Notes: generated from the letters alone by a model not told the origin. A stretch of 64,000 nucleotides of DNA from Patescibacteria group bacterium (GCA_028687275.1 JAQUAK010000001.1:228213-292212); one strand, 5' to 3'. Shown: positions 48,179-52,435, numbered from the stretch's first letter. Made by a program: numbers and translations.

Positions 48179-48505
48179 ATGCGTGAACAACTAAAAAAAG
48201 CTTTAAAACTAGCTAGAAAAAGTCATAATGCCGTCATCTTTTTTGACGCTGACAGTCCAGATGATACTTTTGCTATTTTGGACTTAGATTACTATGAAAA
48301 AATAGCAAGTCCTGAAATATTAGATAAAAAAGATGCTGTGTATAAGGCAAATTTGACAGATGAAGATGTAACTGATACAATAAATCGCGAAATCTGTGAC
48401 TGGAAAAATGAAGAAAATGTTGAATTTTTAGCTGAAGAAAGCAAAAGTAGAAAGAATTGGAATATACCCCCCAACATCAAAAATAAGGCAGAGAATAATA
48501 AATAG
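48179..48505 (+). CDS. hypothetical acidic protein inserted between fusA and tuf
   Basis: 108-aa ORF preceded by AAGGAGG (48162-48168); N-terminal AVIFFDADSPDDTFAILDLDYYEKI vaguely Phd/YefM-like; no family recognised. Confidence 0.6.
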   Translation: MREQLKKALKLARKSHNAVIFFDADSPDDTFAILDLDYYEKIASPEILDKKDAVYKANLTDEDVTDTINREICDWKNEENVEFLAEESKSRKNWNIPPNIKNKAENNK

Positions 48506-49781: not shown

Positions 49782-49793
49782 GTTGTCACTTAG

Positions 49794-49822
49794 GTCCGCT
49801 CTTTTTTCTTTAAAGAGCGGAC
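49794..49822 (+). terminator. 11-bp hairpin after tuf (weak/partial terminator or processing site)
   Basis: GTCCGCTCTTT-7 nt-AAAGAGCGGAC; downstream tract only moderately T-rich. Confidence 0.4.
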
Positions 49823-49871
49823 TCGTAGTGTTTATTTATTACACTTTTAAAAAATAACCGTACATTTCTCT

Positions 49872-50210
49872 ATGTCAGAAACTAAGAAAGACGAGAAGGA
49901 TTATAAGCAAAGAATCCGAATTAAGATTAAGGCTTTTGATCACAAGATTATTGATCAGTCCACAAAGACTATCGTTGATACAATTGAACGTAGCGACGCT
50001 AATTTTTTTGGACCAATTCCATTGCCAACTGAAAAAAGGAAGTATACAGTCAACAGCTCTACTTTTGTGCATAAAGATGCTCGTGATCAGTATGAAATGC
50101 GTATTCATAAACGCATCATCGATATCATTGATCCAAGCGGAAAAACCATTGAAGATTTGACAAATTTAAATTTGCCAGCAGGGGTTGACGTGGAGATAAA
50201 AATGCAGTAA
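49872..50210 (+). CDS. rpsJ: 30S ribosomal protein S10
   Basis: [34 protein letters not shown]. Confidence 0.95.
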
Positions 50211-50251
50211 AATAAAATCAAATATTGATTATTGCCTCTTAGGAGTTGACA

Positions 50252-50349
50252 GGTAACTCTCACGGGATATCCCGTAAGAAAGTGCCAGCCGATAAATAAA
50301 AGGCTTAGGGAGAAAACAGCCATAAAAAACAATAAAAATTGAGAGCACC
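50252..50349 (+). ncRNA. candidate structured RNA (leader/attenuator sensor or small RNA) in rpsJ-rplC spacer
   Basis: Long-range helix GGTaaCTCTCA (50252-50262)/TGAGAGcACC (50340-50349) enclosing palindromic hairpin CGGGATATCCCG (50263-50274) and AGCC-11 nt-GGCT (50287-50305); hand-folded only. Confidence 0.4.
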
Positions 50350-50383
50350 GTTTTTGCGCAATTTTTGCTTTTGTTTTGTTATG

Positions 50384-50410
50384 CTGGTAAACTTACCAGT
50401 TTTTTGTTTT
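50384..50410 (+). terminator. intrinsic terminator 6 nt upstream of rplC start
   Basis: CTGGTA-AACT-TACCAG followed by TTTTTTGTTTT. Confidence 0.65.
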
Positions 50411-50416
50411 AAAAAT

Positions 50417-51235
50417 ATGAAATTCACTTTAGGAAAAAAAATGCAGATGACCCAAATTTGGGATAATGATAAAGTACAAGCTGTTACTCCGGTTTTGGCT
50501 GGTCCTTGCGTTATCACTCAGGTTAAAACTGTAAGTAAAGATAAATATTCAGCTTTACAGATTTCTTTTGGCGCTCGTAAAGCTAAGAATATTAAGAAGC
50601 CTCAATTAGGTCATTTTAAGAAAGCTGGTGTTTCACCAATGCATGTTCGTGAATTCCGCACTGATAAAGACTCAGAGGTAAAAGTTGGTGATACTATTTC
50701 TTTAGCTACTTTTGCAGCTGGTGACGTCATTTCTGTGACTGGAACATCTAAGGGTCGCGGTTTCCAGGGCGTAGTTAAACGTCATGGTTTTAAAGGTGGT
50801 CATAAGAGTCATGGTAATAAAGATCAGTTACGTATGCCTGGTTCTATTGGTCCTAAGGGTCCAGCTCATGTTTTTAAAGGTATGAAAATGGGTGGACGTA
50901 TGGGCAATGAACGTATAACCGTAACAAATCTAATTATTAGTTCAGTTGATTTAGAAAATAATATTATTTATGTTAAGGGTGCGGTTCCTGGAGCTATTGA
51001 TGGACTACTCTTAATTAAATCTCAGGGCGAATTAGTAATAACAGCGCCTAAGACAGAGCTTGTAATTGAAGAAAAAATTGAAGCCGCTGAAGAGGTTAAG
51101 GCTGATAATGTCGAGGAAGTAGTTGAAGAAATTAAAGTTGAAGAGTCTAAAGAAGCTGAGCCAGTTGCTAAAACTGTTGAGGCTGAATCTTCAAAAGATA
51201 CTAAAGAAAATAAAGAAGAGGCTCCGGCCGCTTAA
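50417..51235 (+). CDS. rplC: 50S ribosomal protein L3 with about 65-aa acidic C-terminal extension
   Basis: Start moved to MKFTLGKKMQMTQIWD; GTSKGRGFQGVVKRHGF; tail EEKIEAAEEVKADNVEEVVEE... Confidence 0.94.
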   Translation: MKFTLGKKMQMTQIWDNDKVQAVTPVLAGPCVITQVKTVSKDKYSALQISFGARKAKNIKKPQLGHFKKAGVSPMHVREFRTDKDSEVKVGDTISLATFAAGDVISVTGTSKGRGFQGVVKRHGFKGGHKSHGNKDQLRMPGSIGPKGPAHVFKGMKMGGRMGNERITVTNLIISSVDLENNIIYVKGAVPGAIDGLLLIKSQGELVITAPKTELVIEEKIEAAEEVKADNVEEVVEEIKVEESKEAEPVAKTVEAESSKDTKENKEEAPAA

Positions 51236-51937: not shown

Positions 51938-52435
51938 ATGGCTTTATTTGGAGCAAAACAAACTACCGCAAAAAAAACTACTAAAGAGGATTCTAAGAAT
52001 TCTGAGCTTAAAGTTGAGAAACTCGATACTAAAGATTCTAAGAAGGTAGTTGCAAAAGAATCAGAAGCAAGCATGAAAGATTTGTATGCCGCTGAAAACG
52101 CTACTAAGAAAACAGCTAAGGCTGGTAAGTCTGCTAGCACTTCACGTTTTGACGGCGCTTTCCGTGTTTTAGTTAAACCTTTAGTTACAGAAAAGGCTAC
52201 TGATTTAAGCGCGTCTAACAAATATGTCTTTGTCATTACGAAACCCGCTAATAAGATTGAAGTGGCTAAAGCAGTTTATGCTGTCTACGGAGTAAAGCCT
52301 GTTAGTGTTAATATTGTTTCTATGAAAGGAAAAGTAGTTACTCGCGGTCGCATTAAAGGACAGAGAAAAGATTGGAAGAAAGCGATTGTGACTTTAAAAA
52401 AGGGCGATAGCATTAAGATTTACGAAGGAGTTTAA
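51938..52435 (+). CDS. rplW: 50S ribosomal protein L23 with about 70-aa N-terminal K/E/A-rich extension
   Basis: Core LVKPLVTEKAT...KFVF...KKAIVTLKKG; no Met between Met1 and the core except within the low-complexity tract. Confidence 0.92.
   Translation: MALFGAKQTTAKKTTKEDSKNSELKVEKLDTKDSKKVVAKESEASMKDLYAAENATKKTAKAGKSASTSRFDGAFRVLVKPLVTEKATDLSASNKYVFVITKPANKIEVAKAVYAVYGVKPVSVNIVSMKGKVVTRGRIKGQRKDWKKAIVTLKKGDSIKIYEGV

What the first reader, a model, noticed from the sequence alone, without database searches (positions are those of the whole stretch)
50211..50416. 206-nt structured spacer ending in an intrinsic terminator between rpsJ and rplC (candidate internal S10-operon attenuator or embedded sRNA)
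rplC normally follows rpsJ closely, and every other junction in this r-protein block is about 10-65 nt. Here there are 206 non-coding nt. Hand folding gives a long-range helix, GGTaaCTCTCA (50252-50262) with TGAGAGcACC (50340-50349). It encloses a palindromic hairpin CGGGATATCCCG (50263-50274) and an AGCC...GGCT hairpin (50287-50305). A U-rich tract follows, then a canonical terminator CTGGTA-AACT-TACCAG + TTTTTTGTTTT (50384-50410) that ends 6 nt before the rplC ATG. In E. coli, L4 autoregulates the S10 operon by attenuation in the leader upstream of rpsJ. A terminator placed directly before rplC-rplD suggests an analogous but relocated device, leaving rpsJ outside the control. Alternatively an independent small RNA gene is lodged here.
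Basis: partly seen in the sequence, partly recalled or inferred. Interest (0 to 1): 0.55.

Follow-up and report, generated by a model that had tools for sequence, protein, structure and literature searches.

The report
Conserved rplC leader RNA with attenuator
The long gap between the S10 and L3 ribosomal-protein genes of this Patescibacteria (CPR) genome holds a promoter and a conserved folded leader RNA, absent from Rfam, that can switch between an antiterminator and a terminator hairpin and so probably sets how much of the downstream ribosomal-protein operon is transcribed.

Summary
The 206-nt rpsJ-rplC spacer and its terminator are real. The spacer is not filler. About 105 distinct relatives, all Patescibacteria where the record names a group, carry a homologous element of about 205 nt at the same place. 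It has four parts.

1. A sigma70-like promoter, TTGACG-17 nt-TAnnnT, overlaps the rpsJ stop codon. Its -35 hexamer is held fixed at synonymous codon positions.
2. A three-helix 5' domain (P1-P2-P3) has strong covariation around an invariant internal loop, UAAC/AAGUG.
3. A linker carries an invariant GGAG(G)UAAA.
4. A long A/U hairpin has a base (CAGY:RCUG) that uses the 5' arm of the terminator. It is therefore an antiterminator that excludes the terminator RCUGGU...ACCAGU-U6.

Folding predicts that the antiterminator wins by default.

No Rfam family, tRNA or ORF explains the region.

Best reading: this is a new ribosomal-protein leader that controls an rplC-led operon by transcription attenuation. 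The likely signal is a free ribosomal protein encoded downstream, L4 or L3. The ligand is untested, and the hints of rRNA mimicry are weak.

It is a new member of a known kind, of moderate interest.

The parts
49872..50210 (+). rpsJ (ribosomal protein S10); its last codons carry the -35 element
   Evidence: Pfam PF00338, E 4.9e-32; ORF
50185..50190 (+). -35 hexamer TTGACG, formed by codons Val-Asp-Val of S10
   Evidence: Promoter scan, 10/12 match. Among 105 leaders Val is GTT in 103 and Asp is GAC in 100, while the next Val varies freely: GTG 43, GTA 29, GTC 18, GTT 8.
50208..50213 (+). -10 hexamer TAAAAT (stop codon TAA + AAT); inferred transcription start near 50220
   Evidence: Exactly 17 nt after the -35. 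TTGAC[GT]-17-TAnnnT is present in 101/105 unique leaders, including the clade where S10 is one residue shorter. The start site is inferred, not measured.
50224..50323 (+). Match of covariance model R1 (5' domain plus linker); the only significant match in the window
   Evidence: 55 bits, E 2.3e-9
50234..50304 (+). 5' domain. P1 is 50234-37 : 50301-04, extended by 50239-41 : 50297-99. P2 is 50245-55 : 50283-93. P3 is 50258-60 : 50277-79, with a tip hairpin at 50262-75.
   Evidence: MFE fold. On 67 non-redundant sequences 86.5% of cells pair, against 67% in shuffles and 34-45% when slid; there are 300 double-change cells against 92; the covariation score is 0.467 against 0.175, reached by 0/500 shuffles.
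50254..50284 (+). Invariant internal loop between P2 and P3: 5' strand UAAC(UCU) at 50254-60 and 3' strand (AGA)AAGUG at 50277-84. Candidate ligand or protein-binding site.
   Evidence: ACT and AAAG are invariant, and T-AAC-TC-T and G-AAAG-T are at least 90% conserved, in the 23 spacers found through the L3 protein alone. The U.G and A-U closing pairs hold in 64/67 and 67/67.
50308..50312 (+). Linker word GGGAG (GGAGGUAAA in most relatives), 4-5 nt before the antiterminator strand
   Evidence: GGA is invariant and the next G present in 63 of 64 sequences in alignment A4; the same word aligns in A3. It is complementary to the invariant (UAA)CUCU, but that pairing cannot be tested by covariation.
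50317..50386 (+). Antiterminator: a long A-rich/U-rich hairpin with base CAGC (50317-20) : GCUG (50383-86)
   Evidence: It forms in the MFE of the nascent RNA 50220-50393 and has -16.1 kcal/mol. The four core pairs hold in 84/84 leaders. The fourth pair covaries: C-G 52, U.G 20, U-A 12, C.A 0, Fisher p 2e-6.
50383..50410 (+). Intrinsic terminator: GCUGGUA (50383-89), loop AACU, UACCAGU (50394-400), U-tract to 50410
   Evidence: Terminator scan. CCAGTTTTT is invariant in 23/23 protein-ascertained spacers. 92.6% of cells pair, and the upper stem shows UA/AU/UG exchanges.
50417..51235 (+). rplC (L3), first gene of the controlled unit. It is followed by rplD, rplW, rplB, rpsS and further genes separated by short junctions.
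   Evidence: Pfam hits for L3, L4 and L23; ORF list

Best explanation
The spacer is the promoter and 5' leader of an rplC-led ribosomal-protein operon. It works as a transcription attenuator.

RNA polymerase starts at a promoter that overlaps the end of rpsJ, or reads through from rpsJ. The first ~70 nt of structured leader fold into a P1-P2-P3 rod with an invariant internal loop, UAAC/AAGUG. The next segment folds into a long hairpin whose base (CAGC:GCUG) consumes the 5' arm of the terminator. By default the terminator therefore cannot form, and transcription continues into rplC-rplD and the genes beyond.

When the sensed factor is in excess, it binds the invariant loop and the adjacent GGAG linker and prevents the base of the antiterminator from closing. 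The most likely factor is a free ribosomal protein encoded downstream: L4 by precedent, or L3 as the first gene. GCUGGUA then pairs with UACCAGU, and the hairpin plus U-tract stops transcription near 50405-50411.

Shown here: the conserved promoter, the covarying 5' domain, the mutually exclusive antiterminator and terminator, and the predicted default read-through.

Inferred: the identity of the ligand, the direction of the response, and how binding is coupled to the antiterminator.
For: Conservation. Twenty-three species-level relatives found through the L3 protein alone keep a 172-334 nt spacer with invariant words. A DNA-pattern scan of metagenomes added 120 loci. About 95 of them carry S10 and/or L3 next to the motif in the expected orientation, and CM R1 found nothing significant in the 23 that lack both genes. 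R1 finds 20 of 59 genome loci, always just upstream of rplC.

Structure. P1-P3 covariation is far above the shuffle and slide controls (also on 20 leaders that were all found through the L3 protein alone).

Switch. The CAGY:RCUG pairing holds in 84/84 leaders and covaries at Y:R with p 2e-6. The nascent-RNA MFE contains the antiterminator in 73/84 leaders. The full-length MFE keeps it in 58/84 and shows the terminator in 15/84. In this window the two states are nearly equal in energy, -44.9 against -44.3 kcal/mol.

Promoter. 101/105 leaders have it, with the -35 fixed at synonymous positions.

Read-through is required. Only 6 nt separate the U-tract from the ATG here. The terminator-to-ATG distance ranges from 6 nt here to well over 100 nt in a few relatives, which argues for control of transcription rather than of the ribosome-binding site.

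Strand. U.G and G.U pairs (64/67 in P2, 54/64 in the terminator) would be C.A on the other strand.

Precedent. L4 attenuates the E. coli S10 leader, and L20 attenuates the B. subtilis infC operon through alternative structures (PMC10931766).
Against: No ligand was or could be tested.

The rRNA mimicry is weak. The only two-strand match in E. coli rRNA (23S 430-475, AUACUCC...GGAAAGG) has a chance expectation of 0.2-0.4. H101 shares only the UAAC strand. No rRNA from this clade was available.

I found no conserved anti-antiterminator pairing that links the 5' domain to the antiterminator.

The antiterminator and terminator stems are mostly conserved rather than covarying. On the plain MAFFT alignment the excess over shuffles is small.

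The default-state argument rests on thermodynamic prediction only.

The metagenome set was selected with a pattern containing TAACTCT, GAAAGTG and CCAGTTTTT, so those words are invariant in that set by construction.
Confidence: 0.6

Rival explanations
1. The same leader and switch exist, but the sensed ligand is not a ribosomal protein. It could be a small molecule or ion (a riboswitch, for example for a growth-rate signal) or another trans factor such as a Nus factor.
For: The architecture is that of a riboswitch: a conserved aptamer-like domain followed by an antiterminator/terminator platform. No convincing rRNA mimic was found.
Against: Every locus that could be evaluated pairs the element with an rplC-led ribosomal-protein operon. 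That exclusive association is the hallmark of ribosomal-protein leaders. The conserved part is a rod with one internal loop rather than a junction or pocket. No Rfam riboswitch matches.
Confidence: 0.15
2. It is a constitutive partial terminator and RNA-stability or processing element with no ligand. It would simply set a fixed ratio between rpsJ and downstream expression, or protect the 5' end of the rplC mRNA.
For: In this window the terminator and antiterminator are close in energy, so a fixed fraction of termination is conceivable. A structured 5' domain can stabilise mRNA.
Against: It does not explain about 25 invariant nucleotides in an internal loop and linker across leaders whose helices have diverged completely. 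It also does not explain the preservation of a competing antiterminator with covariation.
Confidence: 0.1
3. It is an independent small RNA gene of about 190 nt, running from the promoter at 50185-50213 to the terminator at 50410, with a function in trans.
For: It has its own conserved promoter and terminator, so a terminated product of about 190 nt would be made in any case.
Against: There is no room for another rplC promoter, since only 6 nt separate the U-tract from the ATG. The conserved antiterminator implies regulated read-through. No known sRNA family matches. There is only one copy in the window, always at this junction.
Confidence: 0.07

Closest known systems
E. coli S10-operon leader (L4-mediated, NusA-assisted attenuation)
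   Same: It is a structured 5' leader ending in a Rho-independent terminator that controls transcription of the rplC-rplD... genes. It is presumed to give autogenous feedback by a protein of the operon (PMC10931766).
   Different: The E. coli leader lies upstream of rpsJ, whereas this one lies downstream, so rpsJ escapes control. There is no detectable sequence or structure similarity. This element has an explicit antiterminator that competes with the terminator. In E. coli, L4 is described as stabilising a NusA-paused complex at the attenuator hairpin. The lineage here is Patescibacteria, not Gammaproteobacteria.
B. subtilis infC-rpmI-rplT leader (L20 leader) and the other Firmicutes ribosomal-protein leaders with terminators (L10, L13, L19, L21)
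   Same: A ribosomal protein chooses between two alternative leader structures, so control acts on transcription termination rather than translation (PMC10931766). This is the closest match in mechanism.
   Different: The RNA family is different: no Rfam hit, although L20_leader and its relatives are in Rfam. The operon and phylum also differ. The ligand here is unknown.
L4-Archaeoglobi candidate ribosomal leader (Eckert and Weinberg 2020, PMC7247131)
   Same: It is a candidate leader directly upstream of rplC-rplD-rplW-rplB, with L4 proposed as ligand by precedent.
   Different: It is archaeal and rated '?' by its authors. This element does not match it in cmscan.
E. coli rpmI-rplT promoter inside the infC coding region
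   Same: The promoter for downstream ribosomal-protein genes is embedded in the preceding gene, which uncouples the regulation of the two (PMC10931766).
   Different: Here the -35 sits in the last codons of rpsJ, the -10 overlaps or abuts its stop codon, and an attenuator follows.

Membership tests
Ribosomal-protein leader (autogenous cis-regulatory RNA; a functional class) | Lies in the 5' untranslated region of a ribosomal-protein operon and is found only there | tested here: met
   Every evaluable locus has rpsJ upstream and rplC downstream. There is one copy in the 64-kb window.
Ribosomal-protein leader (autogenous cis-regulatory RNA; a functional class) | Conserved secondary structure supported by covariation | tested here: met
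   86.5% of cells paired; covariation score 0.467 against 0.175, reached by 0/500 shuffles. One search agrees.
Ribosomal-protein leader (autogenous cis-regulatory RNA; a functional class) | Binds a ribosomal protein encoded in the regulated operon | not testable with these tools
   Needs binding or in vitro transcription assays.
Ribosomal-protein leader (autogenous cis-regulatory RNA; a functional class) | Mimics that protein's rRNA site | tested here: inconclusive
   There is one two-strand match, at E. coli 23S 430-475, with chance expectation 0.2-0.4. H101 shares only the UAAC strand and the architecture. CM R1 does not hit the E. coli rrn operon. No CPR rRNA was in hand.
Transcription attenuator with competing antiterminator and terminator | G+C-containing hairpin followed directly by a U-tract | tested here: met
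   50383-50410. It is nearly invariant in relatives.
Transcription attenuator with competing antiterminator and terminator | An upstream strand can pair with the 5' arm of the terminator, excluding the terminator | tested here: met
   CAGY:RCUG pairs in 84/84 leaders. The Y:R pair covaries and C.A is never seen. The pairing is in the nascent MFE of 73/84 leaders.
Transcription attenuator with competing antiterminator and terminator | Measured, condition-dependent termination | not testable with these tools
   No transcriptome or biochemical data are available.
E. coli S10 leader (L4) | Located upstream of rpsJ, so rpsJ is co-regulated | tested here: not met
   The element lies after the rpsJ stop codon.
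E. coli S10 leader (L4) | Sequence and structure homology | tested here: inconclusive
   No Rfam family matched. I did not verify that Rfam holds a model of the E. coli S10 leader.
L4-Archaeoglobi leader and all other Rfam 15 families | Covariance-model match | tested here: not met
   The window has no hit at gathering thresholds. In the spacer the best E-values are 7.7-8.2. Twelve diverse members gave nothing relevant at E up to 1.
Sigma70-type promoter | -35 and -10 hexamers at 17-nt spacing, conserved in relatives | tested here: met
   101/105 leaders have it. GTT and GAC are fixed while neighbouring synonymous sites vary. The transcription start was not measured.

The most novel reading that the evidence does not exclude
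The leader may sense idle ribosomes rather than a single ribosomal protein. The invariant GGAGGU, a perfect Shine-Dalgarno word, sits 4-5 nt before the antiterminator strand and has no start codon after it. The genome otherwise almost lacks Shine-Dalgarno sequences: 7 of 59 genes have any such word, and none of the ribosomal-protein genes listed. Free 30S subunits, through the 16S 3' end, could bind this word and block closure of the antiterminator. Surplus ribosomes would then directly shut off transcription of ribosomal-protein genes.
Probability: 0.05. Interest if true: 0.85.

Novelty: new member of a known kind. Interest (0 to 1): 0.5.

Why it matters
Feedback control of the large S10-type ribosomal-protein cluster is understood only in Gammaproteobacteria, where L4 acts on a leader upstream of rpsJ. 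How other bacteria regulate it is largely unknown. I found no ribosomal-protein leader described for the Candidate Phyla Radiation.

This element gives a well-defined, strongly covarying RNA of about 190 nt, with more than 100 natural variants and a clear terminator/antiterminator readout. It can be tested entirely in vitro, which matters for organisms that cannot be cultured.

It also shows a different operon logic. S10 (NusE, which also serves as a transcription factor) is kept outside the control by a promoter built into its last codons.

If L3 rather than L4 proves to be the ligand, it would be, to my knowledge, the first L3-based autoregulation.

Tried and rejected
- Known RNA families. 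Rfam found nothing at gathering thresholds over the whole window. Permissive searches of the spacer and of 12 diverse members gave only noise. There are no tRNA or tmRNA genes.
- Protein coding. No + strand ORF lies inside the spacer. The - strand ORFs overlap rpsJ or rplC and are spurious. Indels among relatives do not keep a reading frame.
- Opposite strand. It folds with a better z-score (-4.0 against -2.15). It is rejected because the conserved G.U pairs would become C.A.
- Pattern hits outside the rpsJ-rplC junction. The 23 loci searched with CM R1 gave nothing significant (best L067, E 0.33, in an unrelated context), so I treat them as chance matches.
- A weak second R1 hit inside the L23 gene of L009 (22.6 bits) is treated as chance.
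- rRNA mimicry. R1 did not hit the E. coli rrn operon. Regex and stem searches gave two weak leads only. I could not obtain a CPR 23S rRNA. The key L4 papers are not held.
- Anti-antiterminator. I looked by eye for a conserved pairing between the P1 strands and the antiterminator strand. One exists in some clades (the UAGCUA palindrome) but not in the clade of this window, so it is not claimed.
- GGAGGUA:UAACUCU pseudoknot. The two words are complementary in 6 of 7 positions, but both are invariant, so covariation cannot test the pairing.
- Distant CPR lineages (L017, L019, L020, L027, L031). They have long spacers but no significant R1 match. L019 keeps only the core loop.

Full report
**Observation**

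The window carries a str/S10/spc-type ribosomal-protein block: rpsL, rpsG, fusA, a 108-aa ORF, tuf, rpsJ, rplC, rplD, rplW, rplB and so on. rpsJ ends at 50210. rplC begins at ATG 50417 with the typical L3 N-terminus. This leaves 206 non-coding nt. The following junctions are 23-63 nt. The hairpin GCUGGUA-AACU-UACCAGU (50383-50400, -7.9 kcal/mol) followed by UUUUUUGUUUU is present. The details of the hand-drawn fold are treated below.

**Organism and relatives**

I scanned species-representative genomes with the L3 protein and obtained 59 loci. The 23 closest loci have 55-84% L3 identity. Those whose records name a group are labelled Patescibacteria, Falkowbacteria or Paceibacterota, and several carry an evidently wrong 'Gammaproteobacteria' title. 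All 23 have an rpsJ-rplC spacer of 172-334 nt, mostly 204-215 nt. Actinomycetota, Deltaproteobacteria and Bacilli caught in the same scan mostly have 8-45 nt, with two exceptions of 81 and 558 nt.

The spacers align. Three blocks are conserved:
- TAACTCT-(variable)-AGAAAGTG;
- GGAGGTAAA, or GGGAGAAAACAGC in the clade of this window;
- GCTGGT...ACCAGTTTTTT.

About 95 of them carry S10 and/or L3 next to the motif in the expected orientation. The covariance model found nothing significant in the 23 that lack both genes. In total there are 105 distinct spacers, with a modal length of 205-210 nt.

One caveat applies. The three words are invariant in the metagenome set by construction. Their conservation is independent evidence only in the 23 spacers found through the protein.

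**5' domain**

I aligned 67 non-redundant 5' halves with plain MAFFT, not fitted to any structure (A3). Three stacked helices hold up on this alignment. In window coordinates:
- P1 is GCCU 50234-37 : AGGC 50301-04;
- P2 is 50245-55 : 50283-93;
- P3 is UCU 50258-60 : AGA 50277-79, plus a hairpin of variable length (here 50262-75).

The counts are as follows:
- 86.5% of cells pair, against 67% in column shuffles and 34-45% when the partner is slid by 1-3 columns;
- 300 cells have changes on both sides, against 92 expected;
- the covariation score is 0.467 against 0.175, reached by 0 of 500 shuffles.

RNAalifold on 20 leaders that were all found through the L3 protein alone gave the same P2 helix and the base of P3; for example one pair is GC in 10 and AU in 10.

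Between P2 and P3 lies an invariant internal loop, 5'-UAAC / AAGUG-3'. Its closing pairs are U.G in 64/67 and A-U in 67/67. When the P3 insert is long it always forms a hairpin.

A covariance model of this domain (R1) scores 55 bits (E 2e-9) at 50224-50323, and nowhere else in the window. It finds 20 of the 59 genome loci, each time immediately upstream of rplC.

**Expression platform**

After a linker of about 16 nt that contains the invariant GGAG(G)UAAA comes the word (A/U/C)CAG(C/U). This word is complementary to the 5' arm of the terminator, (G/A)CUGG(U).

In 84 leaders anchored on these words, the four core pairs form in 84/84. The variable pair reads C-G 52, U.G 20, U-A 12 and C.A 0 (Fisher p 2e-6). 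Neighbouring positions extend the helix in a lineage-specific way: CAGUC/GACUG, CAGUU/AACUG, CCGCCAAA/UUUGGCUGG.

The two strands are the base of a long A-rich/U-rich hairpin (-16.1 kcal/mol here). The antiterminator and terminator share GCUG and are therefore mutually exclusive.

Folding the nascent RNA up to the last base before the 3' arm of the terminator gives the antiterminator in 73/84 leaders, including this window. The full-length MFE keeps the antiterminator in 58/84 and shows the terminator in 15/84. In this window the two states differ by 0.6 kcal/mol.

On the unfitted MAFFT alignment A4, both stems are mostly conserved rather than covarying. The terminator pairs in 92.6% of cells, with UA/AU/UG exchanges in the upper stem. 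The antiterminator shows only a small excess over shuffles, partly because some rows are misaligned by one column. The case for the switch therefore rests on perfect complementarity, one clearly covarying position and the folding predictions.

**Promoter**

In 101 of 105 leaders, TTGAC(G/T) lies exactly 17 nt before TAnnnT. The -35 hexamer is made of S10 codons Val-Asp-Val. That Val is GTT in 103/105, and Asp is GAC in 100/105, in a genome of 37% G+C. The next Val uses all four codons.

The -10 hexamer is the stop codon TAA plus AAT in this clade (50208-13). In the other clade it begins right after the TAG stop, where S10 is one residue shorter, so the spacing is preserved.

The element is thus the leader of its own transcription unit, starting near 50220 (inferred), as well as receiving read-through from rpsJ. 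A hairpin after tuf (49793-49823) suggests that rpsJ is transcribed separately.

**What it is not**

- No Rfam 15 family matches the window, the spacer or 12 diverse members.
- There is no tRNA or tmRNA.
- There is no ORF on the + strand of the spacer.
- The minus strand is excluded by the conserved G.U pairs.

**Mechanism**

Only 6 nt separate the U-tract from the rplC ATG, so rplC must be expressed by read-through. The conserved antiterminator, favoured by default, supplies that read-through. The distance from terminator to ATG ranges from 6 nt here to well over 100 nt in a few relatives. This argues for control of transcription, not of the ribosome-binding site.

The invariant loop and linker, in leaders whose helices have otherwise diverged, indicate a specific binding partner. 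Every evaluable copy sits in front of rplC-rplD and the genes after them. By analogy with L4 on the E. coli S10 leader and L20 on the B. subtilis infC leader (PMC10931766), the most likely partner is a free ribosomal protein from the operon. Binding would prevent closure of the antiterminator base 4-5 nt downstream of GGAG, allow the terminator to form, and lower transcription.

My estimates are:
- about 0.85 that this is a cis-acting leader with a terminator/antiterminator switch;
- about 0.6 that a ribosomal protein is the ligand;
- roughly 0.25 for L4 and 0.2 for L3 individually.

The ligand, the sign of the response and the coupling step are all inferred.

**Leads on the ligand**

Both leads are weak.

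1. The only place in E. coli 16S or 23S rRNA that matches both strands of the loop (A[AU]ACYC...GAAAG[UG]) is 23S 430-475, in domain I, the domain that competes for L4 according to the title of a paper cited in that review. The chance expectation is 0.2-0.4.
2. Helix H101 in domain VI reads GUUGAGC-UAAC-CGGU...ACCG-UGAG-GCUUAAC. It shares the UAAC strand and the stem-loop-stem architecture. Domain VI is organised by the globular domain of L3 (PMC9935924).

No rRNA of this clade was available to test either lead.

**Unexplained**

- The function of GGAG(G)UA is unknown. It is complementary to the invariant UAACUCU in 6 of 7 positions.
- Extra GGAG/GAGRG words occur in the hairpin apex of this window's sub-clade.
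- The genome almost lacks Shine-Dalgarno sequences. That makes a perfect GGAGGU with no start codon after it noteworthy. It motivates the low-probability 'ribosome-sensing' reading given as the novel case.

**Comparison and novelty**

In function the element resembles the E. coli S10 leader and, in mechanism, the Firmicutes leaders that carry terminators. It is not a member of any of those families: it has no model match, a different position (after rpsJ) and a different phylum. The archaeal L4-Archaeoglobi candidate is also upstream of rplC but does not match (PMC7247131). Literature searches found no ribosomal leader described for CPR bacteria.

I class it as a new member of a known kind, namely a new ribosomal-leader RNA family. 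Its notable operon logic is a promoter embedded in rpsJ, which excludes S10/NusE from the control.

**Limitations**

- There are no experimental data.
- The metagenome set is biased by how it was selected.
- Covariation shuffles ignore phylogeny.
- E-values from the shortened model calibration are rough.
- The full-length leader was never modelled, because the one covariance model built covers only the 5' domain and linker.

Noticed in passing
window 48179-48505 (+): A 108-aa acidic ORF lies between fusA and tuf. It has no Pfam hit and carries one of the very few strong Shine-Dalgarno sequences in the window (AAGGAGG). tblastn finds it in 80 of the related loci (on the S10/L3 strand upstream of them wherever checked), and the protein database holds 21 clusters of it, labelled 'hypothetical protein' wherever a source names them. 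It is a clade-specific small protein embedded in the str operon.
   Followed up: partly
window, whole; gene starts listed: The genome is almost free of Shine-Dalgarno sequences. Only 7 of 59 + strand genes have any 4-nt SD-like word at -20 to -5, and none of the ribosomal-protein genes listed has one. Start regions are simply A/U-rich.
   Followed up: partly
window 49793-49823 (+): A 12-bp hairpin (GGTCCGCTCTTT...AAAGAGCGGACT) follows tuf directly and has only a weak U-tract. It probably marks the end of the tuf transcript, which would make rpsJ a separate small unit.
   Followed up: no
window 50417-51235 and 51938-52435: L3 carries a Glu/Lys-rich C-terminal tail of about 70 aa. L23 carries an N-terminal extension of about 75 aa: its Pfam domain starts at residue 77 of 165.
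   Followed up: no
L027 2358-2500; L031 2324-2500; L028 1747-2500; L054 1524-2500; L051/L053 ~135-2500: Other CPR lineages (Parcubacteria, Saccharimonadia and others) also have unusually long rpsJ-rplC intervals of 143-2366 nt, but with different content. Some are non-coding stretches rich in hairpins, and some hold small ORFs. None matches model R1.
   Followed up: partly
L002, L005, L007, L008, L012, L013, L018, L058 (record titles): Several public MAG records whose L3 and S10 genes and leader are clearly of the Patescibacteria type are titled 'uncultured Gammaproteobacteria bacterium'. This is probably a labelling error.
   Followed up: no
L009 4201-4292 (+), inside the L23 gene: There is a weak second match to the 5'-domain model: 22.6 bits, E 0.054 in the 291-kb search, with a UAACUCU...AGAAGUUG core. 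It is probably chance.
   Followed up: partly
window 50216-50230: The small hairpin AAUCAA-AUA-UUGAUU just after the rpsJ stop codon is conserved only in this window's sub-clade. It would be cut by the inferred transcription start, so it can exist only in read-through transcripts from rpsJ.
   Followed up: no
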